From NCBI GenBank assembly GCA_016844925.1, contig JAERTI010000038.1:66936-130935 (forward strand): a stretch of 64,000 nt of DNA, read 5' to 3'. Numbering within the stretch: position 1 is the stretch's first letter; each line of letters begins with the position of its first letter. Positions 3,627-55,388 of this stretch are shown piece after piece. The notes beneath the pieces are model-generated. The model worked only from the letters and a program-made list of their open reading frames with translations, searched no databases and had not been told where the DNA came from. The stretch comes from Candidatus Uhrbacteria bacterium (lineage in GTDB: Bacteria; Patescibacteriota; Patescibacteriia; UBA9934; GWF2-40-263). A program made the translations under genes and the position numbers.

Positions 3627-4196
3627 TTGTCAATGGATTGGTATGATGGCGTCAGATATATGCGCAGAGTATCGATCACTATTGGACTGCTAGCGTTGTT
3701 GTTTTTTGCTGGCTGTGGAGCAAGTGAGGAGGTCGAGGTGAGCACGCAGCCCGAGGAGACCCTACCAATGGAAACCATCAAAGATGGTTATGTGAATCTA
3801 GCCTATGGCTATGGGTTTGATCCAGCCGAGGGGTATGACGTATGGGAACTCACGCAAGAGCAAACAGCGGCGCCTGCCGGAGAGGAGGCGACGATGGTGT
3901 TTGTGATCGGAGAGGAAGAGAATTTGTTTACGGTTCGGGGGATCGATGGGGCGCGTAGTGCGCATGAGTGGATCTCTCAAGAGCTTTCATTCTTCTACCC
4001 GAGTGGAAATGCCGCGCAGCGCGTGGGGGAGATTGATGGACGTGAGGCGATCTATTTGCGTGGGACGGGGGGTGCGGATTCACCTGCGCATGTTGTGGTT
4101 GTGCAAAATGGGGAGCAGCTCTTGGTGATCTCGTACGATCGGGAAAACAGAGAATTTGATACAATGCTCTCAACGTTTACTTTTCTAGAAACATAG
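3627..4196 (+). CDS. putative lipoprotein
   Basis: Signal peptide with lipobox LFFAGC. No recognisable domain. Confidence 0.55.
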   Translation: MSMDWYDGVRYMRRVSITIGLLALLFFAGCGASEEVEVSTQPEETLPMETIKDGYVNLAYGYGFDPAEGYDVWELTQEQTAAPAGEEATMVFVIGEEENLFTVRGIDGARSAHEWISQELSFFYPSGNAAQRVGEIDGREAIYLRGTGGADSPAHVVVVQNGEQLLVISYDRENREFDTMLSTFTFLET

Positions 4197-4197
4197 T

Positions 4198-5988
4198 ATG
4201 CCCCGTCTTGGATCTTCATCACCCGCAACTGGTGGTCAGCGTAGTGAGCAACCCCCACGACCATTGGATAGTTCGTTCTTGGCCGAGATGGCTAAGCAGG
4301 AGCGTCTGGTGCGTGGAAAGGAGCAACCTGAGGCGGGTCGTCCTTTGTGGGAGCAGCCGGCTGAGGAGGCTCAGGAGTATTGGCTTGATGTTGAGGCGAT
4401 TCTGGCTGGACCGGAAACGGCTGAACAACCAGCAGATCAGCTTCTGTACGTGAGTCCTGATGGAAAAATGATTGTTGGGCACGAGACGGTTGAGGGGGAA
4501 GGGCGTGTGCGGATGATGGATGCCGAGGATGTTCCAGCTGAGGCGAAGGCCATTCGTACCATCGATCAGTTGACGCAAGGGTATGAACGAATGGTTGATA
4601 CGGTGCTCAAGACAGCGGGAGGTGATGAAGATTTTTCAAAGGAGCAGCTCATGGGGATGCGTGAGTCGTTGATTGTTGAAGCGTCTCTTTCTGATGAGCC
4701 AAAGAAAGAATTGATGCAACTGCTGCGTACCATGAGTCGGGCAGAGGGGCGTGAGCAGGAGGCGACGCTCTTGGGTCGGCAGGCGGAGCTTCGAGAAACA
4801 GAGACCGCACTGGCGGCTTCGAGTGACGCGAACGAACAGCAGCAGTTACGCAATAAAGTCCATGCGCTCCGTAAAGAGCTGTATCAGTTGCGTCGAGAAA
4901 TTAATCCGCGTGCGGCAAAAGATGAGCTTCTGAAGATTTTGGAAGATACAGGCGAGGGGCTTGAGCCCATCTGGAGAGACAGGGAGGAGCCAACCAAAGC
5001 GGCTGTTGAGGATCGCATCGATCAGATCAGGGAGATGATGGCGGAGATCGATAAAAAGAAAGAGTTCCGGGTACTTGATGAGCTGAAGTGGTATGCCTAT
5101 AAGAAAGAGCTTCAGGAATTTGAGTTTGTTCTTAAGGCGATGGAGTTTCGTGAGGCGCACCCGCAGCTGTACTCGACAGATTTTGACGTTATGGATGATC
5201 GCCATCCTTGGGATCAAAGGTTGTTTGCTATCGGGAAGGAAATTACCAAGCGGGAGGCTCCTCGGGCTGATGAAGGGGTGAGGGATACATCGGTGTATCG
5301 CATGCTTAAGGATGTCTATCTCGATCCATCTTCTGAGATCCCTGCGGTGAGTGTGATGGAATCGATCTTGAAGTCATCAACGGCCCCTGAGGCACTGAAG
5401 GAGGCGGCGCGGGCTATGAAGGAGGATGTGAGAGAGAGGCGATTGCCTGCACCAGAACAGTTAAGGAAAAAACGAATGGAAGAGCGAAAGGCGCGACAAG
5501 AAGCAGCGGCGGAAGAGCGGCGAGCAAACGCGGAGAAGGCGCGGCTCGCGCGCGAGGCAAAGCGTCAGAGCCCGCTGGAGAAAGCCATGTTGTATTACAA
5601 CCATGGGAGGTCTCGTGAGCGCATCAATTTTTTGAAAGAAGAACTCAACATGAGCGAGGATGAGTTGCTTGCGATCAATAAGACGTTCAAGACCCTTAGG
5701 TCCATTGGAAAGAAAGTTCCTGGTATGTTCAGCGAGCAAGACTTCTCTTGGTCGGAGTTTGTGAATGCACCGCCGAAGGGGAAGCAAAAAGAACGAAAGC
5801 CTGGATTCTTTGCGAAGCTGTTCGGTCTCAAGCCACGGAAGGTGAAGCGCGCTGGGTTTTTCTCGAAGCGTCGGAGAATGATGCGAAAGATTAAGCGACA
5901 GTTTAAACGCATGCCACGCAACCGTCGCCAGCAGGTGGTGATGACGCTTGAGCGGCAGAAGGCGAACGTGTTTGAGCTCAAGGTCTAG
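4198..5988 (+). CDS. hypothetical charged/coiled-coil protein with strongly basic C-terminal tail
   Basis: 596 aa, Glu/Lys/Arg-rich. The C-terminus ...KPRKVKRAGFFSKRRRMMRKIKRQFKRMPRNRRQ is highly basic. The ATG is 1 nt after the upstream stop. Confidence 0.5.
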   Translation: MPRLGSSSPATGGQRSEQPPRPLDSSFLAEMAKQERLVRGKEQPEAGRPLWEQPAEEAQEYWLDVEAILAGPETAEQPADQLLYVSPDGKMIVGHETVEGEGRVRMMDAEDVPAEAKAIRTIDQLTQGYERMVDTVLKTAGGDEDFSKEQLMGMRESLIVEASLSDEPKKELMQLLRTMSRAEGREQEATLLGRQAELRETETALAASSDANEQQQLRNKVHALRKELYQLRREINPRAAKDELLKILEDTGEGLEPIWRDREEPTKAAVEDRIDQIREMMAEIDKKKEFRVLDELKWYAYKKELQEFEFVLKAMEFREAHPQLYSTDFDVMDDRHPWDQRLFAIGKEITKREAPRADEGVRDTSVYRMLKDVYLDPSSEIPAVSVMESILKSSTAPEALKEAARAMKEDVRERRLPAPEQLRKKRMEERKARQEAAAEERRANAEKARLAREAKRQSPLEKAMLYYNHGRSRERINFLKEELNMSEDELLAINKTFKTLRSIGKKVPGMFSEQDFSWSEFVNAPPKGKQKERKPGFFAKLFGLKPRKVKRAGFFSKRRRMMRKIKRQFKRMPRNRRQQVVMTLERQKANVFELKV

Positions 5989-38999: not shown

Positions 39000-39497
39000 A
39001 TGGCAAAACCAACGGGACTATTTATTGGAAGTTTTCAGCCCTACCACATCGGGCATCATCTCGTTATTCAAGGGATGACAAAGTTGTGTGGCAAGGTGGT
39101 GATCGCGATCGGGAGCTCAGAGAAGTCTGGGACGCCCGAGCATCCATTTACCGCACAGGAGCGCAAAGAGATGATTCAGGCAGCGCTTCAGGACGAGGAT
39201 ATTATTCCGATGTTCGATATCGTCTTCATCGAGGTGCCTGATATGGATGATGATGGCGCTTGGGCAGATCATGTATTGGAGAAGGCTGGAGAGGTGGATG
39301 TTGTTTGGTCAGGGGACGAGTCTACTCAGAAGTGTTTTGAAGGAAAGAAAGAGATCAAGGAGATCAAGGAGGTGCCAGGCATTAGTGCCACGGGCATTCG
39401 AGAACAGATTAAAGTTGACGGCGACTGGCGCGACAAGGTGCCTGCAGCTGTTGTAAAAGCGATGAGCGACCTTGGTGGGCGCAAGCGCATGGGCTAG
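39000..39497 (+). CDS. nicotinamide-nucleotide adenylyltransferase, archaeal/NadM type
   Basis: GSFQPYHIGH (H/TxGH nucleotidyltransferase motif) near the N-terminus. About 165 aa, matching the length of archaeal-type NMNAT. Confidence 0.7.
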   Translation: MAKPTGLFIGSFQPYHIGHHLVIQGMTKLCGKVVIAIGSSEKSGTPEHPFTAQERKEMIQAALQDEDIIPMFDIVFIEVPDMDDDGAWADHVLEKAGEVDVVWSGDESTQKCFEGKKEIKEIKEVPGISATGIREQIKVDGDWRDKVPAAVVKAMSDLGGRKRMG

Positions 39498-44382: not shown

Positions 44383-45003
44383 ATGTTCGCAAGAGCGCTT
44401 GTCCCTGTGAGAGCCCAACAGTGGGTGCAAGGAGCCGCCGCCATGGCGCTTCAGATCGCTCTGGTGAGCGAAGAGTACGTCGAGTTGGGAGAGACCCAAG
44501 TCGATGCCGACACGGTGGTGCTCACCGGAGAGTTGCTGGGACGTTCAGACGTGCACCAGCTGCTGCCGTTCGAAGAGCGGGAGATCTGCCTGCGGGCGGA
44601 CCGGTGCATCTTCGTGCCGTTCGGGTCTCGTGAGTCTGGTGTGCGTGCTGCCGAGGTGGCACTGCCGCTGGCTAGGCATCTGGGGATGAAGGTCCTCTTC
44701 TACCACACCACGTGGCATCAGCCGGGACTGGACTCGTCCATTCCCGACGCGCACATGTGCGAGGACGCCAAGGGGATTCTCGAGCAGCTCAAGAAGATGG
44801 GGCACGAGGGCCAGGTGGCCTTCGAGTACCAGATCGAGCTGGCGGCGGACGTTCTCGAGGGCATCATCCTCGCGGCGCTGGTGCACAAGGCATCACTCAT
44901 CGTCACGGCTCGCGGCACCATGGTACGCATCGGCTCCTACGCCGAGCGTCTCTCTGGTGGCCCCGTACCCGTGCTCATCTGCGCGCAAGAGGAGGGAAGC
45001 TGA
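44383..45003 (+). CDS. universal stress protein (UspA family)
   Basis: C-terminal ...ASLIVTARGTMVRIGSYAERLSGGPVPVLIC USP ATP-binding motif. Confidence 0.65.
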   Translation: MFARALVPVRAQQWVQGAAAMALQIALVSEEYVELGETQVDADTVVLTGELLGRSDVHQLLPFEEREICLRADRCIFVPFGSRESGVRAAEVALPLARHLGMKVLFYHTTWHQPGLDSSIPDAHMCEDAKGILEQLKKMGHEGQVAFEYQIELAADVLEGIILAALVHKASLIVTARGTMVRIGSYAERLSGGPVPVLICAQEEGS

Positions 45004-46235
45004 TGAAACGCTTTTTCCACTCGCCCTACACCGTGATGGGTGTCGTGCTGGTCATGTACCTGATCAAGGTCACGGCCAAGCTCGGCATCGGCATGCGTGT
45101 TCATTCGCCGATGATCACCGGTGACGGCTGGCACAACGTGGCGGACATTTTCGAGGCCTTGATGGTCATCGGGGTGATCTTCTTCTCGCGCCTGCCGGCC
45201 TCCGACAGCTACCCGCTGGGTCGCAAGAACATCGAGAGTCTGTTCTCGGTGCTGGTGGGTGTCGGTCTGGCGCTCGCCGCGTGCAGCGTCATCTGGTCAT
45301 CCATCAGCGGCGCCATCGCCCTGAGTGCTGGGGCTCCTGCTGGTGTCCTGATCTCGTGGGAGTTCGCTCCCTGGGTCATGGGTGTCACGCTCGGTAGCGC
45401 CCTGCTGTCGATGGGTGTCTCGCGCTACCAGATCAAGATCGGACGCGATTCCGGGCACGAGGCCCTGGTCGCCGACGGTGAAGAAACCCGCAGCGACGGC
45501 CGCATCGAGCTGGCCACGTTCATCGGCGTGTGTGGGGAGTACTTCTTCCACTCGCCGTGGATCGAGTACCCGTTCGCGCTGATCGTTGCCTATCTCATGT
45601 TCAAGACGGCCTGGGAGATCTTCAACCGAGGCTGGGGCGCGCTGATGAAGCGTTCCATCGGCCTGGGGCACGAGCAGCAGATTCGGTTGCTGGTGGAGGA
45701 CCTGCCGGGGGTGGTCGAGGTCGACGAGATCAAGACTTTCCGGACCGGCAGCAAGGTCATTCTCATCCTCAAGGTGCTGACGCGCCAGGATTCGAGGATC
45801 AACCGTTTGCTGAAGAAGGCCATGGCGGTGCACATCGCTCAGTACCTGCGCAGCGAGGAGTTCGAGGACGGGGACTTCTTCATTCGGTTCGACGAGCCGG
45901 ACCCGGAGCGCTTCCGGCGGGCGGTGGCGGTGCACACGTACCGCGGCAATCTGGAGATCACGCGTGAGCTTGATACGGCTGATGCGGTGATGATCTGTGA
46001 CATCGAGCACGGGAGGGTGGTGCGTGCCACGCGGCACGAGTGCGATCTCTCGTACGACGACCGGATGGCTCGGGTGCACTGGTTCAGAGACCTGCTGGTT
46101 CAGAAGCGGGCGGTGGAGCTGGTGGTGTTCGAGGAGCGGACCGAGTTTGGTCTGATCGACGCTCACATGCTCAAGAGGTGTGGCATCAAGCTGACCAACG
46201 CGGCGGGGCGAGACCCTGTCATCTACGGGCTCTAG
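45003..46235 (+). CDS. cation diffusion facilitator (CDF) family efflux transporter with extended C-terminal domain
   Basis: The start overlaps the USP stop (TGATG). TM region with the CDF signature (HxxxD-like GDGWHNVADI, SRLPASDSYPLGRKNIE). About 410 aa. Confidence 0.7.
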   Translation: MKRFFHSPYTVMGVVLVMYLIKVTAKLGIGMRVHSPMITGDGWHNVADIFEALMVIGVIFFSRLPASDSYPLGRKNIESLFSVLVGVGLALAACSVIWSSISGAIALSAGAPAGVLISWEFAPWVMGVTLGSALLSMGVSRYQIKIGRDSGHEALVADGEETRSDGRIELATFIGVCGEYFFHSPWIEYPFALIVAYLMFKTAWEIFNRGWGALMKRSIGLGHEQQIRLLVEDLPGVVEVDEIKTFRTGSKVILILKVLTRQDSRINRLLKKAMAVHIAQYLRSEEFEDGDFFIRFDEPDPERFRRAVAVHTYRGNLEITRELDTADAVMICDIEHGRVVRATRHECDLSYDDRMARVHWFRDLLVQKRAVELVVFEERTEFGLIDAHMLKRCGIKLTNAAGRDPVIYGL

Positions 46236-46785: not shown

Positions 46786-46912
46786 GTGGTCTCCTTTCTT
46801 GCGCGGATGCGCAGGGTGTTGACCGTCTCAGGGCGAGACAGACGCCTCAACCTAATCGCTTTTTGTTGTTTTGTCAATGAAAAGCCCCCGCTTGCGTAGC
46901 GGGGGTTGCGTA

Positions 46913-47983
46913 CTAATCGCTCGAATCCAGGAGCGACTTCGTGCCGGCCGTGGGGCCGGGGAGGAGCGGGCGGGTGCCGGCTCCGGGGACGTGCAGCGGG
47001 TCGCTGGGCGTTCCCTTTCCAACCAGGGCGATGGACTTCATCACCGTGGCGACGTTGATGGTGCCGTGCTGGGTTGGCAGCTGGCGGCTCTTGAGCTGTC
47101 CGGTGAACAGGGCGAGCTGGCCGGTCATGGCGGCGATGGTGCCGAGCATGACGTCCACGATGCGCCGGGGATCGTTCAAGGGGACGATGGCCTCGGGGCT
47201 GGGGAGCATGCGCTCCCAGTACGGGCGGATGGCGTCGGCCTTGGCTCCGTAGTAGGCGCCGGTGTCGAACAAGATGGTGAAGAGGTTCATCCGGCGTGAG
47301 AGCAGGGTGAAGACGCTCTTGGCATCCATGAGGTCCGAGGGGACGTCCAGGTCCAGCCAGCGCCTCACCAGCGGGGCGCTGATGCGGTCGCAGCCGGCCT
47401 CGTCCGTGATGATCCAGGTGTAGACGTTGCGCGCCTGGCTCACATCCACCTGCTGGAGAAGGTAGTAGGCGACGAGCTCGGGGGTTTCCGAGCCCTGGCC
47501 TCCACCACCGCAGTTCATGTAGAAGGACGAGAGGATCTGGTCCAGTTCCTGTTCGCGGCCGAAGCGTGCGACCTGGACCGCGTGGCTGTCCGTGCGGGCG
47601 TCACCGAAGCAGATGAACAGGATCTCGAGGTCGTCGCTTCCCAGGTAGGTCACGGCTTCCTGCCACATCAGCGGCAGGCGCTTGAAGATCTCCTCGGGGT
47701 TGTCGCCCATCGAGCCCGTCACATCACAGGCGACGATCAAGACGTTGGCCGCCGTGGCGACCAGCTTGTGCGTGGCCGTGGGAATGGGCGTCGACGCGGT
47801 CTGCGTGAACGCCTTACGCGGCGGGGGCTTGGGGGCGCTGACCGGCGGCGTGTCCGGGCCGATCTTCTGTACGCGAGGATTCTTGTGCGCGGAGACCGCG
47901 CGAGAGAACCAGCCGCCAGTCTGCTGGCGCGTGGGGGGCGTGTTGTGCGAGTCGTTGCGGACCCAACCGAATGCTCCAGACAT
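46913..47983 (-). CDS. von Willebrand factor A (vWA) domain protein
   Basis: MIDAS-type LIVACDVTGSMGD. A Pro/Thr-rich linker lies N-terminal to the vWA fold. 356 aa. Confidence 0.7.
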   Translation of the reverse strand: MSGAFGWVRNDSHNTPPTRQQTGGWFSRAVSAHKNPRVQKIGPDTPPVSAPKPPPRKAFTQTASTPIPTATHKLVATAANVLIVACDVTGSMGDNPEEIFKRLPLMWQEAVTYLGSDDLEILFICFGDARTDSHAVQVARFGREQELDQILSSFYMNCGGGGQGSETPELVAYYLLQQVDVSQARNVYTWIITDEAGCDRISAPLVRRWLDLDVPSDLMDAKSVFTLLSRRMNLFTILFDTGAYYGAKADAIRPYWERMLPSPEAIVPLNDPRRIVDVMLGTIAAMTGQLALFTGQLKSRQLPTQHGTINVATVMKSIALVGKGTPSDPLHVPGAGTRPLLPGPTAGTKSLLDSSD

Positions 47984-47993
47984 GATGTACTCC

Positions 47994-48770
47994 TTAGCGA
48001 AGCTTGAAGGCTTCGCGGGTTGCTGTGCGGCCGAAGATGGTTTTACGGAGTCCGGCCAGCTCCTGGTTCAGTTTGCGTGCGTCCTGTGGGCGGGCCATGG
48101 GGTCGCGTCGGATCATCTTGGCGATGAAGGTGCTCAGCCGTGGATCCATGTCCTGCGGCAGCGCACCGTTCATCACATTGCCGCCACTAAGAGCAACGGC
48201 GGTCATCCCCAGCGAGAAGATGTCACTGGCGGGGATGGGCGGGAGTCCCTGCTGGAACTCTGGCGGGATGAAGTGCGGCGTGCCGCCCTTGGCTCGTGCG
48301 TCCGCTCCAGGGCCCACGATGGTCAGCCCGAAGTCCACCAGCACAGCGTTGTGCGTGGGGATGTCCAGGATGATGTTCGCTGGCTTGATGTCGCAGTGCA
48401 CGGCCCGCATGTAGTGCAGGTAGCTCAGGGCATCGAGCACACGCTGGAGGATCCAGCAGATGTGTTCATCGTGCACAGGGCCTTTGCGCTGCAGGACGTC
48501 CGCCAGACTTTCACCCTCGATGTAGGACATCACGGCCACCTGACCGAAGTCTGGATGCTCGAGGTAGTCCTTGAGGGTGGGGAGGCTGACGTGATGGATG
48601 CCCCAGAGGATCTTGGCTTCCTCGCGGAAGAGATCCATGTAGGCAGGGTCACCCGTCTTCTCTTGCTTGATGCAGACGGGTTCGCCCAGGAGCCTGTGCC
48701 GCCCGAGGAAGGTGCGTCCGAACGCTCCTTCTGAGATTTGGCGCTCGACTTGGTAGTTGCCGATCTTCAT
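47994..48770 (-). CDS. serine/threonine protein kinase (kinase domain only)
   Basis: GAFGRTF glycine loop, the VCIK lysine, catalytic HCDIKPANIIL, DFG and PPE motifs. 258 aa with no sensor or TM domain. Confidence 0.85.
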   Translation of the reverse strand: MKIGNYQVERQISEGAFGRTFLGRHRLLGEPVCIKQEKTGDPAYMDLFREEAKILWGIHHVSLPTLKDYLEHPDFGQVAVMSYIEGESLADVLQRKGPVHDEHICWILQRVLDALSYLHYMRAVHCDIKPANIILDIPTHNAVLVDFGLTIVGPGADARAKGGTPHFIPPEFQQGLPPIPASDIFSLGMTAVALSGGNVMNGALPQDMDPRLSTFIAKMIRRDPMARPQDARKLNQELAGLRKTIFGRTATREAFKLR

Positions 48771-49912
48771 GCCTTCTCCAGGGTGAAGAGGGTTTTGAGG
48801 GTTTCTGCCAGACGGTTGAGGCCGCGGGCGCTGCGATCAGGGTCGAGGTCGTTCAGGTAGTGAATGACGTGACCGTGACTGTGGCGCTCGGCAGTTGCCT
48901 GCAGTGTTTCGATCTTGCGCTGCGCGCTCCACTGGTGCTTGCCAATGCGCTTGAGCGTTGTGGCGTCGATCTTGCGCTTGTCTGCGAGAGCCTCTCGGTC
49001 CGTGGCTTCCACCACGATGGCGTTGCCGCTCACCATGGCGCTCATGTTCATCTCGGCAAGCTGCGCCCACTCCACGATCACCAGTCCCTTGGCCTGCGCG
49101 AGTGCCTTGCGGTACAAGCGCATGACGTGAGGGGTGGTGAGGGCGTGGATCTGCGTACGCGTCTCGTCCGGGCAGTGAGGATCGAACAGGCGCGTCTTGA
49201 GCGCGTCCCGGTCGACTTCCTTGCCGTCAGCCGTCAGGACATCTGGGCCCAGGAGGGTGGCGAGGGTATCGCGGACCTTCTGTGCACCAGGAGTCGCCTC
49301 GACGTAGAGGTCGCGAATGAGCTGGTCGAAGTTGATATGCGTGGCGCCGAGGCGCGTTGCGAGCTCACCTGCGACGTAGCTCTTGCCGCTGGCCATCTCG
49401 CCGGTGATGCCGATGAGATGCCTGCCGAGCAGACGCTCTTCCAGCGCCGCCTTCACGAAGAGGGGGACGAAGGGAGAGATGTCGACATGGTGGCAGGTGA
49501 GAGCCTTCACGAGTGAGCTCGAGATTTCGCGGAGTTCCTGCCGCGCTGGCAGGAACTCGACAAGCTCAGAGAAGCCGGGGAGCAGGAGGTCGTGGTAGGC
49601 CATCTGCTGGGCTTCGTACGCCTGGTCCGTCTCGTTGCGGATGCCGCGGAAGACGCGGTCGCAGCCGTGCTGAATGAACGCATCGACCAGCAGGCCGGTG
49701 GAGGAGTGAACCTCGACGTTCTTGAGATGCTCCAGGGCGCGTCGCGTCATGGCGACACGCTCGCTCAGCGTGAAGGTGTAGCGGCCGCGCTTGGCATCGT
49801 TGTCAGCGATGAGCACGATCAGGGTGTCGCAGCGTGAGGCTGCACGAGTGATCAGATCAATATGGCCGAAGGTGATGGGATCGGCCGAGAGGGGAAGCAG
49901 TCCTGTGGTCAT
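48767..49912 (-). CDS. coaDE: fused phosphopantetheine adenylyltransferase / dephospho-CoA kinase (CoaD-CoaE)
   Basis: The N-terminal 160 aa align with CoaD (LLPLSADPITFGHIDLITRA, ISSSLVK). The C-terminal half aligns with CoaE (IGITGEMASGKSYVAGELATRLGA). The stop overlaps the kinase start by 4 nt. Confidence 0.8.
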   Translation of the reverse strand: MTTGLLPLSADPITFGHIDLITRAASRCDTLIVLIADNDAKRGRYTFTLSERVAMTRRALEHLKNVEVHSSTGLLVDAFIQHGCDRVFRGIRNETDQAYEAQQMAYHDLLLPGFSELVEFLPARQELREISSSLVKALTCHHVDISPFVPLFVKAALEERLLGRHLIGITGEMASGKSYVAGELATRLGATHINFDQLIRDLYVEATPGAQKVRDTLATLLGPDVLTADGKEVDRDALKTRLFDPHCPDETRTQIHALTTPHVMRLYRKALAQAKGLVIVEWAQLAEMNMSAMVSGNAIVVEATDREALADKRKIDATTLKRIGKHQWSAQRKIETLQATAERHSHGHVIHYLNDLDPDRSARGLNRLAETLKTLFTLEKA

Positions 49913-50121
49913 GGCCGTCTCCGGTTCAGTTGTAAGGATCTGTCTCTAGACTATCGAGATCTGCAAGGTGCGTACGCAAAACAAAGAACCGCCAGACTTG
50001 GTGTGAGTCTGGTGGGGAAGTTTGGCCCTAAGGTTAGGGGTGCTTGGTGGGGTTAGGGGAGTGGGTGTTGACGAAAAATCTCGTCGTCAGTATTGTAAAA
50101 ATAACACTTACCCACACCTGT

Positions 50122-50874
50122 ATGCCCACACCACTGAAAACACTTCTTAAGCGTCTTGGTCTTTCTGAAAAAGAAGCACAGGTCTATTTAGCCTCGCTTC
50201 GTCTTGGAGAAGCGACGGTGACGCAGATTGCCCATGGGATGAAGATGCAGCGCACGACCGTGGCGAGTATTCTTGATCGATTGCGCGAGCGTGGGTTGAT
50301 TACGCAGAAGACGTCTAAGGGCAGGCGTGTCTATTGGATCGAGGATCCGCACGTGCTTGTAGAGCATGAGCAGGCGCGTCTGCATGTGGTTGAGCAGATT
50401 GCTGGGCGACTTCATGCGCAGTATCACCAGGCGGACAAGAAACCAAGTGCGGAGGTGTTTGATACAAAGGAGGGGTTGCGGAAGTTGATAACGCGCGTGG
50501 TGGCTGAGCTGCGTAAGGGGGATGAGGTACTCACGTTTGAGTCACCGGCAGCGAATCACTATCAGGCCGTGCTGACAGATGAAATGTTTCACGCCCTGGC
50601 AAAACAGAAAGATAAAAAAGGTGTACAGACACGTTCGCTTGTTCCATCAGGACAGGAGGAGTCGATTCGTCCTGGGGCGCTTGAGCATAATGTGCAGGTG
50701 CGCGTAATGCCGCCGGGTGTGCTCGTGGAGTCGTCCTTCTGGATGTATCGCAATACCTTGGTGCTGTTCTCTGGGACACACACATTCGCCGTGGTGATTT
50801 CGCATCGTCACATGAAAGAGTCCATGGCGTCGCTGTTTGAGATGGCCTGGGCGCAGTCGCAGCCGATTGGTTGA
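50122..50874 (+). CDS. TrmB-family transcriptional regulator
   Basis: N-terminal wHTH LGLSEKEAQVYLASLRLGEATVTQIAHGMKMQRTTVASILDRLRERGLI. A TTGACG-N17-TATTGT promoter lies at 50068-50102. Confidence 0.7.
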   Translation: MPTPLKTLLKRLGLSEKEAQVYLASLRLGEATVTQIAHGMKMQRTTVASILDRLRERGLITQKTSKGRRVYWIEDPHVLVEHEQARLHVVEQIAGRLHAQYHQADKKPSAEVFDTKEGLRKLITRVVAELRKGDEVLTFESPAANHYQAVLTDEMFHALAKQKDKKGVQTRSLVPSGQEESIRPGALEHNVQVRVMPPGVLVESSFWMYRNTLVLFSGTHTFAVVISHRHMKESMASLFEMAWAQSQPIG

Positions 50875-50947
50875 CAATTGGCTGTTTTTTCTTTATTCTT
50901 TCGCGTTCGTGAGTCTCAGGCTTACGGCGTTTTCTGGAGGACAGAAC

Positions 50948-52180
50948 ATGAACCAGCAAGACATCGCTCAGGCAGTCAGACAGTTGGTGGGCGGATCCCA
51001 TCGGGTGATCGTCTGCGCCACCGGTTCCAACGGTGGCATCGACAAGTGGCTGACGGTGCCGGGAGCGAGCAGCTTCTACGACGGCTACAACTTCACCTAC
51101 AACCGGAACATGACCACCGAACTGATCGGTCAAGAGGTCGACGGGTCGTTCGTCTCGCCAGAGATGGCGATCCAGTTGGCGGCCGCGGGCTACGAGCGCG
51201 CGTGCAAGTACGCGGTGCTCGACGGTCAGGCTGGCCGGCCCATCATCGCGGTGGGGGTCACATCTTCGCTTCCGAGCGACTACGACAAGCGTAGTCCCAA
51301 CCAGGCGTACATCTGTGCACGCACGGCGAAGGGGTTCTTCCTCGTGCACTTGCAGCTTCCCAAGGAGCCTCGTCAGGATGAGGCTTTGAAGCGGATGTCT
51401 CTCTCTGAGCTTCAGGCCATCCGCGATGAGATGCGTGAAGAGCAGTCGCAGATCGTCGATCTGGTCGCGCTCAACACCATCCTGAAGTTGGCGGACGCTG
51501 AGCAGGTAGCCATGGAGGCAGCTGGGACTCGGTGCGAACAGTTCTACGGATTCCCTGGGTCGATGGCTGTCGAACCCCAGCGCATCGACGCCGACCCCGA
51601 GGACATCTTCGATCAGGTCTTCGGCCTCGATCAGGATCCCGTGATCGATCGGGTGAACTGGTCGGATTACGTCCTGTTCCCCGGCAGCTTCAACCCGCTG
51701 CACTACGGTCACCTGGCCATGGCGGGGTGGATGGAGTACCGGACCCAGCGCAAGGTGGTCTTCCAGATCTCCCAGCACCACCCGGTCAAGGTGGAGCTGG
51801 CTTTCAAGGAGGACTTGCTTCGCCGGCGCATGCGGCAGTTCCGCTACCGACATCCGGTGGTGGTGACCCGTCACGAGGGCCTCTACTTCGACAAGTCCAA
51901 GCGCTTCCCGGGCGCGCACATGCTTCTGGGCGCCGACGCACTGATGCACATGCTCAACCCGGAGTTCTACCCCGAGGGCGTGGTGTCCATCGTCAAGGAG
52001 CTCGAGGGGTGCCGGCAGCGAGGAACGGTCTTCTGGGTCGTGGATCGTCAGGTCGGTGACGACCTGCTCACGCTCGACAACATCGTCCTGCCGCCGGGGC
52101 CGTTCGACGACCTGTTCCAGCACCTGAGTGCGGTCAACACCATCTCCAGCTCGGAGATCCGCGCACAGCAGGGTCGCTAA
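50948..52180 (+). CDS. fusion protein: CinA-C/PncC-like (NMN deamidase) domain + NadD-like nicotinate-nucleotide adenylyltransferase
   Basis: N-terminal ATGSNGGIDKWLTVPGASSFYDGYNFTYN...GSFVSPEMAIQLAAAG matches the CinA C-terminal domain. C-terminal FPGSFNPLHYGH and ISSSEIR match NadD. RBS ggaggacagaacATG. Confidence 0.7.
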   Translation: MNQQDIAQAVRQLVGGSHRVIVCATGSNGGIDKWLTVPGASSFYDGYNFTYNRNMTTELIGQEVDGSFVSPEMAIQLAAAGYERACKYAVLDGQAGRPIIAVGVTSSLPSDYDKRSPNQAYICARTAKGFFLVHLQLPKEPRQDEALKRMSLSELQAIRDEMREEQSQIVDLVALNTILKLADAEQVAMEAAGTRCEQFYGFPGSMAVEPQRIDADPEDIFDQVFGLDQDPVIDRVNWSDYVLFPGSFNPLHYGHLAMAGWMEYRTQRKVVFQISQHHPVKVELAFKEDLLRRRMRQFRYRHPVVVTRHEGLYFDKSKRFPGAHMLLGADALMHMLNPEFYPEGVVSIVKELEGCRQRGTVFWVVDRQVGDDLLTLDNIVLPPGPFDDLFQHLSAVNTISSSEIRAQQGR

Positions 52181-52216: not shown

Positions 52217-52245
52217 TTGACAGCGGAGGTGTTTCTCGGTAGGTT
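52217..52245 (+). promoter_or_regulatory. sigma70-like promoter TTGACA-N17-TAGGTT immediately after a terminator
   Basis: Hairpin cgagtccaaacggggctcg plus a T-tract at 52189-52215, then TTGACA. Confidence 0.5.
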
Positions 52246-52273
52246 TTGCTCTGGCTCAGTAAGGAGGAGACCA

Positions 52274-53005
52274 ATGGATTTGCCGATTTTGGTGCCCTGG
52301 ACAGTGAAGCGGGGAGTGACTCGCCCACACGAGAAAGAGGCACCTGAGGCGATGGTCTTCCGTCTCCTTGGTGTGCCTAGCTGCGACGAGGTTGAGATTC
52401 TCGACATCCAAGAGGGGGCCGTGCGGTTCCTTGCTGGTGGACGAGAGAGAGTCACTTCACTGAGCAGCGCCCGCATGTGGGCGCTCACTGGATGGCTTCT
52501 GACTCGGATGCACACACTCAGGGAAGACAGAACCTACGTCGAGCTTCTCGTGGTCCTGGGCCCAGGTGGTGACCTGTTGTGTCAGCGCAAGGACATGGAC
52601 TACCCGGAGGAGTCCTTCCGTGGGAAGTTGTCACTGTTTGGTGGCGGGGTTCACGAGGGGGAGTCGCGTCCGGGGGCCTGTGTTCGGGAATTGTACGAAG
52701 AGATTCGTGATCTGGTTACAGCCGACGAGATCGCCAACGCGCTCGAGGAAGGTCCGCTGCTGACATTTCCGTACCAGGGGGTGCGGTACCAGGCCGGGGG
52801 AACGATTGCTCGAGCACCGGACGCAGATACGTTCGAGCGCTGGCGTCGTGTCCTCTCAGATCCGGCGAACCTTGGTGAGGCGCAGCCCGCCTTTGTTCCA
52901 GGTTTTGATCTGGTGCCCATGATTGCCGAGCAGTGCCTGCAGCCCCTCAAGCACTTCGCTGGCGTTCACCACCTCGTCATCGCTGCTGTTCTTGCTTTGC
53001 CTTGA
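52274..53005 (+). CDS. Nudix hydrolase with N-terminal extension
   Basis: Nudix box GGGVHEGESRPGACVRELYEEIR. RBS aaggaggagaccaATG. 243 aa. Confidence 0.75.
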   Translation: MDLPILVPWTVKRGVTRPHEKEAPEAMVFRLLGVPSCDEVEILDIQEGAVRFLAGGRERVTSLSSARMWALTGWLLTRMHTLREDRTYVELLVVLGPGGDLLCQRKDMDYPEESFRGKLSLFGGGVHEGESRPGACVRELYEEIRDLVTADEIANALEEGPLLTFPYQGVRYQAGGTIARAPDADTFERWRRVLSDPANLGEAQPAFVPGFDLVPMIAEQCLQPLKHFAGVHHLVIAAVLALP

Positions 53006-54749: not shown

Positions 54750-55388
54750 TCAGGCCGCGAGGGACTCGAGCTCGCGAGCGATGTTCTCGCGGGCGTGGGC
54801 CTCCAGGGCGTGGCGCAGCTGCGGCGTCTGGTAGATGTGCGGCCTCTCGAGGAACGTGCGCATGAACCTGGCGCGTAGGAGCTCGTAGTCATCTCCACGG
54901 ATCCAGCCGTACTCCTTGCGGATGTCCGTGGTGTACGCGTCGTAGCGCTCGCGGGTCGCGCCAAGGATGGCCAGGTCGATGTCGTTCACCCAGCAGGTGG
55001 CGTTGTCGTCCGAGGCAGCGTGACCCTTGGTGGCCATGATGAGCGCCTCCACGCGGGTGACCACCGGCAGCGAGAGCATCTGCGAGTCCTGGAGCCCGGA
55101 GTCCGTCAGGAAGACGGTTCTGAACTGCAGTGCACTGCTCTGCTCGTTGTCCATGTTCTCGGGGACGTAGACGGCATCGTGCCAGAAGAGCGCAAGCGCG
55201 ACGAGAGCTGGGTTCTCCATGTGAGAGCGGTGCTGCTGCCAGAGAGCGAAGCACTCGTCCAGGTGCTGGCGCGTGTGGTAGTGCCGCTGAGGCATCCCAT
55301 ACTGACGCATCAGCATGTTGAATACGTCGCGCCGGGGCGGAAGGCCCCAGGTCTCCATGATCAGTTTCCAGATTTCGTACAGCCTCAT
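54750..55388 (-). CDS. HD-superfamily phosphohydrolase-like protein
   Basis: H..H...D...LALFWHDAVY arrangement of His/Asp typical of HD domains. 212 aa. Confidence 0.5.
   Translation of the reverse strand: MRLYEIWKLIMETWGLPPRRDVFNMLMRQYGMPQRHYHTRQHLDECFALWQQHRSHMENPALVALALFWHDAVYVPENMDNEQSSALQFRTVFLTDSGLQDSQMLSLPVVTRVEALIMATKGHAASDDNATCWVNDIDLAILGATRERYDAYTTDIRKEYGWIRGDDYELLRARFMRTFLERPHIYQTPQLRHALEAHARENIARELESLAA

What the first reader, a model, noticed from the sequence alone, without database searches (positions are those of the whole stretch)
46913..49912. Three-gene operon coupling fused CoaD-CoaE to a domain-minimal Ser/Thr kinase and a vWA protein
On the minus strand, coaDE (48767-49912), a 258-aa kinase-domain-only STK (47994-48770) and a vWA protein (46913-47983) run consecutively. 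The first junction overlaps by 4 nt and the second has a 10-nt gap, so the three are almost certainly co-transcribed. The kinase has all catalytic motifs but no sensor, TM or FHA domain. The vWA protein has a MIDAS site and a Pro/Thr-rich linker that would be a plausible phospho-acceptor. STK+vWA pairs are known from TerY-P-type triads, but no PP2C phosphatase is present here. Linkage to the last two CoA-biosynthesis steps is not something I recognise. CoaD and CoaE are normally separate genes in bacteria, and a fused PPAT-DPCK otherwise resembles eukaryotic COASY. The operon sits in a GC-rich accessory island next to NAD-metabolism genes. That makes a metabolic-signalling or defence-related module a reasonable hypothesis.
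Basis: partly seen in the sequence, partly recalled or inferred. Interest (0 to 1): 0.75.

Follow-up and report, generated by a model that had tools for sequence, protein, structure and literature searches.

The report
CoA-synthesis, kinase and vWA gene trio
A three-gene operon in a tiny symbiotic (CPR) bacterium joins the last two steps of coenzyme A synthesis to a protein kinase and a metal-site adaptor protein, and the same trio is also carried as a unit by huge phages, which suggests that CoA supply is controlled by phosphorylation and traded between these bacteria and viruses.

Summary
On the minus strand, 48767-49912 encodes a bacterial-type PPAT (CoaD) fused to a DPCK (CoaE). 47994-48770 encodes a 258-aa kinase-domain-only Ser/Thr kinase. 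46913-47983 encodes a protein that no HMM library recognises, but whose confident model is a vWA fold with an intact MIDAS site. The junctions (4-nt overlap, 10-nt gap) and a terminator after the last gene indicate one transcript.

The window is a Patescibacteria (CPR) chromosome. The trio is not a strain-specific island: the same order recurs in all 15 fetched MAG/metagenome loci with upstream DNA. In the 11 distinct cellular-type loci a conserved 16-bp palindrome lies upstream, and in those with enough flank a TrmB-type regulator lies nearby. No defence signature was found.

New findings: the trio also occurs in huge-phage contigs (up to 536 kb), and its three gene trees are broadly congruent. 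The kinase+vWA pair exists without CoaDE in other large phages. The vWA gene alone sits next to a PurA-like gene in four lineages. CoaDE fusions without the pair occur in phages and archaeal-type contigs, often next to an HD phosphohydrolase.

Best reading: a CoA-salvage enzyme under a kinase/vWA phospho-switch, similar in design to ArnB/ArnC and TerY-P. This is inferred, not shown.

The parts
48767..49912 (-). coaDE: bacterial-type phosphopantetheine adenylyltransferase (residues ~1-162) fused to dephospho-CoA kinase (residues ~163-335), plus a C-terminal extension of about 45 aa
   Evidence: TIGR01510 scores 113.7 bits (cut-off 103.3) and PF01121 scores 55.1 bits (cut-off 27). The PPAT half aligns end to end with 34 solved PPATs (E down to 9e-26); the DPCK half matches 1jjv, 2grj and 2f6r at about 3e-6. 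H17, K41, S131-S132, G176-K177 and D196 are invariant in 27 fusion homologs.
47994..48770 (-). Stand-alone eukaryote-like Ser/Thr protein kinase of non-RD type (HCD catalytic loop), 258 aa, translationally coupled to coaDE
   Evidence: PF00069 scores 112 bits. The G-loop EGAFGRT, K35, the E50/E51 pair, HCDIKPAN, DFG, GTPHFIPPE and a conserved C-terminal FGRTxTxExFKxR tail are all present. It is the best-conserved member of the trio, at 50-68% identity across loci.
46913..47983 (-). Cytoplasmic vWA/MIDAS protein ('vWAl'). It has a disordered N-terminal tail (~1-75) that starts with an invariant MSGxFGW motif, a vWA core (~76-320) and a disordered C-terminal tail
46885..46905 (-). Intrinsic-terminator-like hairpin that closes the operon
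   Evidence: 8-bp stem with 7 G-C pairs followed by a T-run; dG -19.4 kcal/mol, z = -3.3, and 0 of 200 shuffles fold as well.
49929..49938 (-). Conserved -10-like motif TCCTTACAAC, about 16 nt upstream of the coaDE ATG
   Evidence: It is the only match to TCYTTACAAY in the 64-kb window, although 26 of 100 shuffles give at least one match. The same motif lies 12-31 nt upstream of the coaDE start in L001, L004 and L007, with a one-base-longer variant in L013.
50070..50088 (.). Operator-like palindrome (GACGA-N-TCGTC; consensus GACGAAAAAnTTCGTC), about 158 nt upstream of coaDE. It overlaps the predicted promoter of the divergent regulator gene
   Evidence: It is present 136-250 nt upstream of coaDE in 11 distinct loci (12 fetched). 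It is absent, even with one mismatch in the arms, upstream of coaDE in every viral or phage-like trio locus. Background is 9 hits in 1.15 Mb. The sigma-70-like promoter hit is at 50068-50096(+).
50044..50874 (+). Divergent TrmB-family winged-helix regulator. The true start is probably downstream of the listed TTG, because homologs align only from residue ~9-31
   Evidence: PF01978 TrmB at 6.5e-13, plus a weak PF24409 hit. A homolog lies within about 2 kb of the trio in 12 fetched loci (11 distinct) and in none of the viral ones.
54750..55388 (-). HD-superfamily phosphohydrolase ('HD212'), genetically linked to CoaDE fusions in CPR, archaeal-type and phage contigs. It is an associated gene and is not part of the transcript
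   Evidence: It lies directly after CoaDE in L001/L002, L019-L021, L029, L034 and L039, directly before it in L037, and directly after a CoaD-only gene in L052/L053. It is close by in L003, L010 and L011. Sources name the family 'predicted metal-dependent HD superfamily phosphohydrolase'. H38, H70-D71 and D136/D138 are invariant and H42 is nearly so. The model has pLDDT 96.6 and an all-alpha HD fold.

Best explanation
This is a lineage-conserved, transcriptionally regulated operon of Patescibacteria (CPR). Its first gene makes coenzyme A from scavenged 4'-phosphopantetheine, using a bacterial-type PPAT fused to a DPCK. Its other two genes encode a self-contained phospho-signalling pair: a minimal non-RD Ser/Thr kinase and a cytoplasmic MIDAS-type vWA protein with disordered tails.

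Shown: the domain identities and intact catalytic and MIDAS residues; the operon structure; conservation of gene order and tight coupling across CPR lineages; the upstream palindrome and nearby TrmB-type regulator in the cellular copies; carriage of the same trio by huge phages with broadly congruent gene trees; and the independent existence of the kinase+vWA pair in other large phages (and of the vWA gene next to a PurA-like gene) and of the CoaDE fusion.

Inferred: the kinase phosphorylates the vWA protein's tail (Ser2 is the candidate site) and/or CoaDE. The vWA MIDAS site then binds or releases a partner. In this way the pair acts as a post-translational switch on the nucleotide-cofactor enzyme it is encoded with, in the manner of ArnC/ArnB or the TerY-P triads. 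In cells, the TrmB-type regulator acting at the palindrome adds transcriptional control. In phages, the same cassette would serve to keep up or redirect the host's CoA supply.
For: Domains and residues.

Operon structure.

Conservation. CoaD-(CoaE)->STK->vWA is kept in 15 of 15 MAG/metagenome loci that have upstream DNA and in 7 distinct viral or phage-like loci. The CoaDE/STK junction overlaps or has a gap of at most 11 nt in 14 of 18 loci. The STK/vWA junction overlaps or has a gap of at most 59 nt in 12 of 15.

Unit inheritance. NJ trees of the kinase, the vWA protein and the CoaD domain recover the same groups.

The window is cellular. L096 is viral, with a virion structural protein at E = 1e-77 located 1.7 kb from the trio.

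The pair is an independent module. Kinase->vWA occurs without CoaDE in a 485-kb megaphage and in about 200 Bxz1-type mycobacteriophages. The vWA gene is adjacent to a PurA-like gene in four phage lineages.

Ser2 correlates with an intact adjacent kinase. The protein starts MS- in all 17 such loci read, MGG/MGC in 3 kinase-less phages, and MGS next to the Cali-type pseudokinase.

Precedent for reduced genomes keeping only PPAT and DPCK to scavenge phosphopantetheine: PMC8721197.

Cis-regulation: the palindrome is found in 11 distinct loci and in no viral locus.
Against: There is no direct evidence that the kinase targets the vWA protein or CoaDE.

No phosphatase and no FHA partner is conserved with the cellular clade. 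PP2C appears near only one locus. A metallophosphoesterase of unknown substrate follows the vWA gene only in the viral-type clade.

The Ser2 correlation is phylogenetically confounded, because the trio copies form one clade and only the megaphage is an independent data point.

In three phage-like loci, small ORFs separate the kinase from the vWA gene.

CoaDE fusions work without the pair in many phages and in archaeal-type contigs. The pair is therefore not needed for catalysis, and the linkage could reflect co-regulation or co-transfer rather than a direct interaction.

The DPCK half is below the strict NCBIfam equivalog cut-off (46.8 bits against 65.55).

Whether the genome lacks coaA and coaBC, which would make this a true salvage route, could not be checked from 64 kb.
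Confidence: 0.45

Rival explanations
1. The trio is in origin a huge-phage takeover or counter-defence cassette that CPR bacteria have domesticated. On this view CoaDE is a cofactor-restoration gene, comparable in logic to phage NAD+ reconstitution. The kinase/vWA pair acts on host proteins, not on CoaDE.
For: The trio is present in IMG/VR contigs of 81-536 kb and in phage-like contigs, and these copies are interleaved with cellular copies in the trees. The phage kinases of the pair carry J-domain-type N-termini: a Pfam DnaJ hit at 1e-14 in the megaphage, and an HPD-containing segment in Cali that aligns with it. This suggests recruitment of host Hsp70. NAD/ADP-ribose genes cluster beside the module: ADP-ribosylglycohydrolase in L036 and L096, NADAR in L026, NAD kinase in L028, and NMNAT/NUDIX in phage TM30 and in CPR loci. 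CoaD alone is a recurrent phage gene (PMC8093824).
Against: The cellular copies are stably syntenic across Uhrbacteria- and Moranbacteria-type genomes. They have their own operator-like palindrome and TrmB regulator, which the viral copies lack. The CPR kinases have no J-domain. The direction of transfer is unresolved, since only midpoint-rooted NJ trees were made. No CoA-depleting defence system is known to me.
Confidence: 0.25
2. The 'protein kinase' is really a small-molecule kinase that supplies CoaD with its substrate, that is, a novel pantetheine or pantothenate kinase. The operon would then encode three consecutive CoA-salvage steps plus an accessory vWA protein.
For: The kinase is translationally coupled to coaDE. 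Reduced genomes need a source of 4'-phosphopantetheine (PMC8721197). ePK-fold enzymes include small-molecule kinases, and there are weak APH and ABC1 hits.
Against: The protein matches Pkinase strongly (112 bits) and keeps the protein-kinase activation segment and GT...PPE (APE-type) motif as well as the C-lobe. Close homologs sit next to the vWA gene in phages that have no CoaDE in the fetched locus, and these are fused to J-domain-type N-termini. The kinase is always paired with the vWA protein.
Confidence: 0.07
3. The trio is an anti-phage defence or abortive-infection system.
For: The kinase matches the PADLOC kinase models mad6 and PD-T4-6. vWA-kinase combinations occur in conflict systems (PMC7159879).
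Against: The PADLOC hits cover only the generic kinase domain. CoaDE and the vWA protein hit nothing. The operon is conserved in order and position across CPR lineages, next to housekeeping genes. It is itself carried by phages.
Confidence: 0.05
4. The adjacency has no functional meaning. The kinase/vWA pair merely hitch-hiked next to coaDE in one ancestor and has been inherited passively.
For: Each sub-module exists on its own elsewhere.
Against: Overlapping stop and start codons are maintained in most loci at only 35-60% protein identity and across the cell/virus boundary. The three gene trees are congruent. When insertions do occur, the order is still kept.
Confidence: 0.08

Closest known systems
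ArnC/ArnD kinases with ArnB (vWA) and ArnA (FHA) of Sulfolobus acidocaldarius
   Different: No FHA/zinc-ribbon partner and no conserved phosphatase were found here. The output there is archaellum expression, whereas here the linked gene is a CoA-synthesis enzyme. Sequence identity is only about 10%. Phosphorylation is not shown here.
TerY-P triads (vWA protein TerY + Ser/Thr kinase + PP2C phosphatase) and related bacterial vWA-STPK-FHA-PP2C operons (for example Deinococcus DRA0331-0334, bioRxiv 10.64898/2026.01.23.701218)
   Same: An operonic pairing of a MIDAS-type vWA protein with a eukaryote-like kinase.
   Different: PP2C is absent from the window and is not conserved with the trio. The vWA protein is not recognised by any Pfam or NCBIfam model. 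There is no link to tellurite-resistance genes. Unlike those systems, this pair is linked to CoaDE and is carried by phages.
Eukaryotic CoA synthase (COASY), a bifunctional PPAT-DPCK enzyme
   Same: The same two activities are fused in the same N-to-C order. The DPCK half matches the mouse COASY DPCK structure 2f6r at 2.7e-6.
   Different: The PPAT half is the bacterial CoaD type. It passes the TIGR01510 equivalog cut-off and matches 34 bacterial PPAT structures. The fusion is therefore most simply read as an independent event. It is found in CPR, in archaeal-type contigs and in huge phages.
Phage auxiliary metabolic coaD genes (phrog_29208; PPAT genes reported in jumbo phages, for example PhiMa05, PMC8093824)
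   Same: A PPAT homolog carried by large phages.
   Different: Isolated phages carry CoaD alone. The CoaD-CoaE fusion and its coupling to a kinase/vWA pair were found here only in metagenomic huge-phage contigs and in CPR genomes.

Membership tests
Phosphopantetheine adenylyltransferase (CoaD/PPAT, bacterial type) | Score above the curated equivalog cut-off of TIGR01510 | tested here: met
   113.7 bits against a cut-off of 103.3; residues 5-160 cover profile positions 3-154 of 155.
Phosphopantetheine adenylyltransferase (CoaD/PPAT, bacterial type) | Nucleotidyltransferase T/HxGH motif, the substrate-binding Lys/Arg and the ISSS ATP-binding motif (features named from my own knowledge of PPAT structures) | tested here: met
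   The sequence reads DPITFGH(17)ID...K41...FRGIR(92)...EISSS(131-132)LVK. It aligns with S. aureus and Thermus PPATs. S9, D11, P12, H17, K41, S131 and S132 are invariant, and G16, R92, D96 and E100 nearly invariant, in 27 fusion homologs.
Phosphopantetheine adenylyltransferase (CoaD/PPAT, bacterial type) | Catalytic activity (4'-phosphopantetheine + ATP -> dephospho-CoA) | not testable with these tools
   Needs an enzyme assay or complementation of a coaD mutant.
Dephospho-CoA kinase (CoaE/DPCK) | Pfam PF01121 above its gathering score | tested here: met
   55.1 bits against 27; residues 166-335 cover profile positions 2-166 of 180.
Dephospho-CoA kinase (CoaE/DPCK) | NCBIfam equivalog cut-off (TIGR00152) | tested here: not met
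   46.8 bits against a cut-off of 65.55. This is a divergent member. The P-loop G171...G176-K177 and D196 are invariant in the family, and the half matches the solved DPCKs 1jjv, 2grj and 2f6r at about 3e-6.
Eukaryotic COASY | PPAT-DPCK fusion whose PPAT domain is of the eukaryotic type | tested here: inconclusive
   The domain order is the same. Only the DPCK domain of COASY (2f6r) is matched, and every PPAT match is a bacterial CoaD. Whether a eukaryotic PPAT-domain structure was available for comparison is not known.
Eukaryote-like Ser/Thr protein kinase (Pkinase, PF00069) | Pfam score above gathering score, plus the catalytic Lys, the alphaC Glu, HxD...N, DFG and an APE-type motif | tested here: met
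   112 bits against 31.7. K35, E50/E51, H-C-D-IKPAN, DFG and GTPHFIPPE are conserved in the CPR orthologs, except that three loci have DMG or DLG in place of DFG and one (L004) has HGD in place of HCD. Kinase activity was not tested.
von Willebrand factor A (vWA) domain with MIDAS | Recognition by curated sequence models (Pfam vWA families) | tested here: not met
   No Pfam, NCBIfam or PADLOC hit at E <= 0.1.
von Willebrand factor A (vWA) domain with MIDAS | vWA (Rossmann-like alpha/beta) fold | tested here: met
von Willebrand factor A (vWA) domain with MIDAS | MIDAS motif: DxSxS, a Thr in the GGT-type loop, and an Asp in the TD(G/E) strand end | tested here: met
   D87-V-T89-G-S91 (a DxTxS variant), the GGGG160-163...S165-E166-T167 loop and T193-D194-E195. 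D87, S91, G160, G162, E166 and D194-E195 are invariant from CPR to phage homologs, and T89 nearly so. Metal binding was not tested.
TerY-P triad | A PP2C phosphatase encoded together with the vWA and kinase genes | tested here: not met
   No PP2C was found in the window by tblastn with the L003 PP2C. A PP2C_2 gene occurs about 4 kb from the trio in only one locus. A metallophosphoesterase of unknown substrate follows the vWA gene in the viral-type clade only.
TerY-P triad | The vWA component belongs to the TerY family | tested here: not met
   No match to any vWA or TerY model in Pfam or NCBIfam.
Known anti-phage defence systems (PADLOC-DB v2) | All components match the models of one defence system | tested here: not met
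   Only the kinase matches (mad6 and PD-T4-6 kinase models). CoaDE and the vWA protein have no hit.
ArnA/ArnB-type phospho-switch | An FHA-domain partner that reads the phosphorylated vWA protein | not tested
   No FHA domain appeared among the 23 window ORFs scanned against Pfam around the operon, but the whole window was not scanned.

The most novel reading that the evidence does not exclude
CoA supply, like NAD+ supply, may be a contested resource in virus-host and symbiont-host conflicts. On this reading the trio is a mobile, self-regulating 'CoA reconstitution' cassette. The kinase/vWA pair senses a cellular state and gates a PPAT-DPCK enzyme, possibly fed by the linked HD phosphodiesterase. 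Huge phages and CPR bacteria exchange the cassette. It would be the first case of Ser/Thr-kinase control of CoA biosynthesis in prokaryotes and the first CoA-centred counterpart of the phage NAD+ reconstitution pathways.
Probability: 0.15. Interest if true: 0.85.

Novelty: new variant of a known kind. Interest (0 to 1): 0.62.

Why it matters
CPR bacteria are thought to live on cofactors and precursors taken from their hosts. A conserved operon that ties the last steps of CoA formation to a kinase/vWA pair would give a concrete, testable handle on how such minimal cells regulate cofactor salvage.

The same cassette in phages of 81-536 kb adds CoA to the list of metabolites that large viruses may manage during infection. 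It also points to gene exchange between CPR bacteria and huge phages.

The work also defines three things that can now be studied. The first is a sizeable unannotated vWA family (about 1,475 clusters at 50% identity) that current HMM libraries miss. The second is a convergent bacterial-type PPAT-DPCK fusion found in CPR bacteria, archaeal-type contigs and viruses. The third is an uncharacterised HD phosphohydrolase family that now has a genomic link to CoA metabolism.

Tried and rejected
- Near-identity DNA search of 44-54 kb against GenBank phages found no match, so the region is not a known prophage.
- Exact-sequence look-ups of the window's CoaDE and vWA proteins found nothing on record. 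Context therefore had to come from homologs.
- The AFDB50 fold library was not available.
- Sequence search of the HD212 protein against PDB gave only noise. Its fold search gave only weak PDE-domain matches, with none at E <= 0.001, so no substrate can be assigned.
- The metallophosphoesterase has no PDB sequence relative, so whether it is a protein phosphatase is unresolved.
- Literature searches for a phage PurA + vWA pairing, for 'CoaDE' and for 'COG4339' returned nothing relevant. The CPR + CoA search returned no paper on CPR.
- A first fixed-spacing pattern for the palindrome matched nothing because the spacing was wrong. The regex version worked.
- Rejected: a frameshift artefact creating the fusion, because about 70 orthologous fusion clusters exist.
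- Rejected: recent horizontal import inferred from GC, because the GC excess is the same in all lineages.
- Rejected: a defence system.
- Largely rejected: the kinase as a pantetheine kinase, because it has protein-kinase-specific motifs and occurs in CoaDE-free phage contexts.

Full report
**1. What is in the sequence**

The first junction is an ATGA overlap. The second is a 10-nt gap that contains AGGAG. No terminator-like site lies at either internal junction. A strong hairpin followed by a T-run (46885-46905; dG -19.4 kcal/mol, z = -3.3) starts 7 nt after the last stop codon. Co-transcription is therefore the simplest reading.

**2. The three proteins**

*CoaDE.* Residues 5-160 pass the curated equivalog cut-off for bacterial PPAT (TIGR01510, 113.7 bits against 103.3). 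Residues 166-335 pass the Pfam threshold for CoaE (55.1 bits against 27), but not the stricter TIGR00152 cut-off of 65.55 (46.8 bits). The PPAT half aligns end to end with 34 solved bacterial PPATs, with E down to 9e-26. The DPCK half matches the solved DPCKs 1jjv and 2grj and the DPCK domain of mouse COASY (2f6r) at about 3e-6. In 27 fusion homologs the PPAT residues H17, K41 and S131-S132 and the DPCK residues G176-K177 and D196 are invariant, and R92 is nearly so. Both active sites look intact. About 70 orthologous fusion clusters exist, so the fusion is not an assembly artefact.

*Kinase.* It matches Pkinase at 112 bits. An alignment of CPR orthologs shows the G-loop EGxFGRT, the catalytic Lys (VCIK), the alphaC Glu, an HCD catalytic loop (which makes it a non-RD kinase), DFG, GTPxFxPPE and a conserved C-terminal FGRTxTxExFKxR tail. 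At 258 aa there is no room for other domains.

**3. Where it lives**

Homologs of the third protein and of the fusion that carry an organism label are named Candidatus Uhrbacteria, Moranbacteria/Moraniibacteriota, Falkowbacteria or 'Patescibacteria group'. The window carries FtsH, PGI, CTP synthase, two Mur ligases, P-type ATPases, an MFS transporter, UvrA/B/C and three tRNAs. It is a CPR chromosome.

Mapping the window proteins onto 16 related loci shows CoaD-(CoaE)->kinase->vWA in all 15 that have upstream DNA. The kinase is the best-conserved member (50-68% identity), and a TrmB-family regulator is detected within about 2 kb in 12 of them. In L001/L002 the operon again lies beside uvrBA.

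The trio is 4-9 GC points richer than its flanks in all 13 loci measured, although those genomes range from 33% to 60% GC. The 'GC-rich island' appearance is therefore a property of these genes that tracks host GC, as expected of a long-resident gene set rather than a recent import.

The CoaDE/kinase junction overlaps or has a gap of at most 11 nt in 14 of 18 loci. The kinase/vWA junction overlaps or has a gap of at most 59 nt in 12 of 15.

**4. Cis-elements**

A 16-bp palindrome (consensus GACGAAAAAnTTCGTC; window 50070-50088) lies 136-250 nt upstream of the coaDE start in 11 distinct loci (12 fetched; L004 and L005 carry the same sequence). These include loci where the TrmB gene is not divergent. 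The background rate for the pattern is 9 hits in 1.15 Mb of the other fetched DNA. The palindrome is absent upstream of coaDE in every viral or phage-like copy, even with one mismatch allowed in the arms. In the window it overlaps the only sigma-70-like promoter match, at 50068-50096.

A -10-like motif, TCYTTACAAY, lies 12-31 nt upstream of the coaDE ATG in four loci, with a one-base-longer variant in L013. It occurs once in the 64-kb window, although 26 of 100 shuffles also give at least one match.

The cellular operon therefore appears to be under dedicated transcriptional control. The adjacent TrmB-type protein is the most plausible regulator, but this is an inference.

**5. The phage connection**

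(a) *The vWA-like family without CoaDE.* It is found in about 200 Bxz1-type mycobacteriophages, in 6 Vibrio and 10 Rhizobium phages, in a gut phage and in a 485-kb megaphage. In Cali/SrishMeg2525 and in the megaphage, a kinase gene lies directly upstream. The megaphage kinase carries an N-terminal J-domain (Pfam DnaJ at 1e-14). The N-terminus of Cali gp251 has an HPD-containing segment that aligns with it, and its kinase domain has lost the catalytic Asp and the DFG motif. In Cali, TM30, Va1 and the gut phage, the vWA-like gene is followed by a PurA-like adenylosuccinate synthetase, directly or after one small ORF.

(b) *The full trio in viral contigs.* It is present in the phage-like metagenomic contigs L026-L028 and in the IMG/VR viral contigs L036 (536 kb), L095 (81 kb), L096/L097 (402 kb) and L098 (100 kb). 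L096 encodes a virion structural protein (phrog_1645, E = 1e-77) 1.7 kb from the trio. L036 carries three DNA methylases and an ADP-ribosylglycohydrolase but no hallmark gene in the 17 kb fetched.

(c) *CoaD-CoaE fusions without the pair.* They occur in about a dozen more viral contigs of 64-466 kb, and in archaeal-type contigs that carry GatD/GatE, the archaeal CCA enzyme and NFACT.

(d) *Phylogeny.* Midpoint-rooted NJ trees of the kinase, the vWA protein and the CoaD domain recover the same groups. Phage-like L026 nests among the chromosomal CPR copies. The MAG contigs L014-L016 group with viral L036. The CoaDE-less phage pairs fall outside. The trio has therefore been inherited or transferred as a unit across the cell/virus boundary. 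The direction of transfer is unresolved.

**6. Other recurrent neighbours**

An HD-superfamily phosphohydrolase (window 54750-55388) follows, precedes or lies near CoaDE in CPR, archaeal-type and phage loci. Sources name the family only 'predicted metal-dependent HD superfamily phosphohydrolase'. Its model (pLDDT 96.6) resembles PDE catalytic domains only weakly.

NAD/ADP-ribose genes cluster around the module. In CPR these are NMNAT-like genes and a NUDIX gene. In phages they are ADP-ribosylglycohydrolase, NADAR, NAD kinase and PRTase + NMNAT/NUDIX.

A metallophosphoesterase directly follows the vWA gene in L036, L014-L016 and L098. Its substrate class is unknown.

**7. How it most likely works**

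*Shown:* an intact PPAT-DPCK enzyme, an intact protein kinase and an intact MIDAS vWA protein are made from one regulated transcript, and all three are conserved as a unit.

*From established knowledge:* PPAT and DPCK convert 4'-phosphopantetheine to CoA. Reduced parasitic bacteria that retain only these steps are thought to scavenge the precursor (PMC8721197).

*Inferred:* the kinase/vWA pair is a phospho-switch acting on, or alongside, the enzyme it is encoded with. Four observations support this.
- The pair is a module of its own, and in other phages the vWA gene is placed beside another nucleotide enzyme (PurA-like).
- There is an experimentally characterised precedent: the ePK ArnC phosphorylates the vWA protein ArnB, which tightens its complex (PMC6509490, PMC12852372).
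- The vWA protein has long disordered tails.
- Its residue 2 is Ser in all 17 loci read that have an intact adjacent kinase, Gly in the three kinase-less phage copies, and the Cali-type copies next to a pseudokinase start MGS. This correlation is phylogenetically confounded.

I put about 0.45 on this model. The main rival (0.25) is that the cassette is primarily a phage takeover or cofactor-restoration device, whose kinase/vWA pair targets host proteins and which CPR bacteria later domesticated. I consider a defence system, a small-molecule kinase and meaningless adjacency all unlikely, for the reasons given under the rival explanations.

**8. Comparison with known systems, and novelty**

The closest known systems are the ArnC/ArnB switch, the TerY-P triads and related vWA-STPK-FHA-PP2C operons, eukaryotic COASY, and phage coaD auxiliary genes. 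This trio fails the defining TerY-P features: there is no PP2C and the vWA protein is not a TerY-family member. It is not a COASY homolog in its PPAT half. My searches of the held literature found no description of any of the following:
- a CoaD-CoaE fusion in prokaryotes or phages;
- its coupling to a kinase/vWA pair;
- the vWA-like family itself;
- the vWA/PurA-like pairing in phages.

I therefore rate it as a new variant of a known kind (a kinase/vWA signalling pair hard-wired to a cofactor-synthesis enzyme and shared with huge phages), with moderately high interest. The mechanism remains inferred.

Noticed in passing
window 54750-55388 (-); L001 6539-7180; L019 7136-7867; L021 5018-5665; L029, L034, L037, L039, L052/L053: An uncharacterised HD-superfamily phosphohydrolase family (sources name it 'predicted metal-dependent HD superfamily phosphohydrolase', often mis-named 'NMDAR2C subunit'; no Pfam hit) is repeatedly encoded next to CoaD-CoaE fusions, or next to CoaD alone, in CPR, archaeal-type and huge-phage contigs. 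This suggests an unrecognised role in CoA or phosphopantetheine metabolism. The model has pLDDT 96.6. The nearest solved folds are PDE catalytic domains, and only weakly.
   Followed up: partly
L019 6001-7134, L020 and L021 3881-5008: Bacterial-type CoaD-CoaE fusions (29-35% identical to the window protein) sit in contigs with archaeal markers (GatD/GatE, archaeal CCA-adding enzyme, NFACT, MJ1316). This implies cross-domain spread of the fusion, possibly into DPANN-like archaea.
   Followed up: partly
L017 (phage Cali) 4737-7380; L023 (Rhizobium phage TM30) 3839-6113; L024 (Vibrio phage Va1) 3884-5966; L025 ~3806-5820: In four unrelated large-phage lineages the vWA-like gene lies directly upstream of, or one small ORF away from, a PurA-like adenylosuccinate synthetase. 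No paper describing this pairing was found.
   Followed up: partly
L018 6755-7789 (megaphage LR745208.1); L017 3607-4737 (Cali gp251): The phage kinases paired with the vWA-like gene have J-domain-type N-termini: a Pfam DnaJ hit with an HPD motif in the megaphage, and an HPD-containing segment in Cali that aligns with it. The Cali-type copy has lost the catalytic Asp (HGA) and DFG (DWC), so it looks like a pseudokinase.
   Followed up: partly
L036 11187-11993; L014 5116-5919; L015 4874-5692; L016 11096-11899; L098 8811-9632: A calcineurin-like metallophosphoesterase (motifs DxH, GD, GNND, GHTH) immediately follows the vWA-like gene in the viral-type clade of the trio. It could be the missing phosphatase of a kinase/vWA/phosphatase triad, or a nucleotide pyrophosphatase. 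No homolog was found in the window.
   Followed up: partly
window 50070-50088; L001 5105; L003 5857; L004 5899; L007 559; L008 665; L010 2691; L011 501; L012 7867; L013 7808; L015 1599: A conserved 16-bp palindrome, GACGAAAAAnTTCGTC, lies 136-250 nt upstream of coaDE in cellular-type loci and is absent from all viral trio loci. It is probably the operator of the TrmB-type regulator.
   Followed up: yes
window 49992-50012 (-): A perfect 7-bp inverted repeat (CCAGACT-N7-AGTCTGG) followed by a T-rich run lies in the coaDE upstream region, between the palindrome and the -10-like motif. It was scored as terminator-like. It was not seen in the four orthologous intergenic regions examined, so it may be a lineage-specific attenuator or a chance hairpin.
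   Followed up: partly
window 50837-52180 (+), 52217-53005 (+), 39000-39497 (+): NAD-related genes lie near the operon. A 447-aa protein has a C-terminal NadD/NMNAT-like nucleotidyltransferase domain and a weak CinA-like N-terminal hit. It has a homolog next to the TrmB gene in L004/L005. There is also a NUDIX protein and a separate 165-aa NMNAT-like protein. In L003 and L008-L012 an NMNAT-like gene sits convergently, right after the vWA-like gene.
   Followed up: partly
L036 13443-14387; L096 8856-9761; L026 10530-10976; L028 10569-end; L036 5311-6513 and L003 16040-end: In the viral trio loci the module is surrounded by NAD/ADP-ribose genes: ADP-ribosylglycohydrolase, NADAR, NAD kinase and a nucleoside 2-deoxyribosyltransferase-like gene. 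A homolog of the last one is also present in the 652-kb L003 contig. This hints at a cofactor-management gene neighbourhood in huge phages.
   Followed up: no
L027 6316-6924 + 8496-8651 and 9292-10316: In this phage-like contig the kinase gene is split by an insertion of about 1.5 kb carrying reverse-oriented small ORFs, and the vWA-like gene is frameshifted. This looks like a decaying copy of the trio.
   Followed up: no
all trio loci (window 46913-49912 and 12 others): The trio is 4-9 GC percentage points richer than its flanking DNA in every lineage, whatever the genome GC (33-60%). The cause is unexplained and could be amino-acid composition or expression level.
   Followed up: partly
window 44383-45003 (+) and 44712-46235 (+); L003 3615-5731: A cation-diffusion-facilitator gene and a neighbouring gene without Pfam hits are syntenic with the trio in the window and in L003. 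CDF homologs are also next to the trio in L004 and L007. In the window, the two ORFs as listed overlap, so their starts need revision.
   Followed up: no
L007, L010, L016 (record titles): Three trio-bearing MAG contigs are labelled Gammaproteobacteria or Bdellovibrionales, although their genes group with CPR or huge-phage copies. This is probably mis-binning.
   Followed up: no
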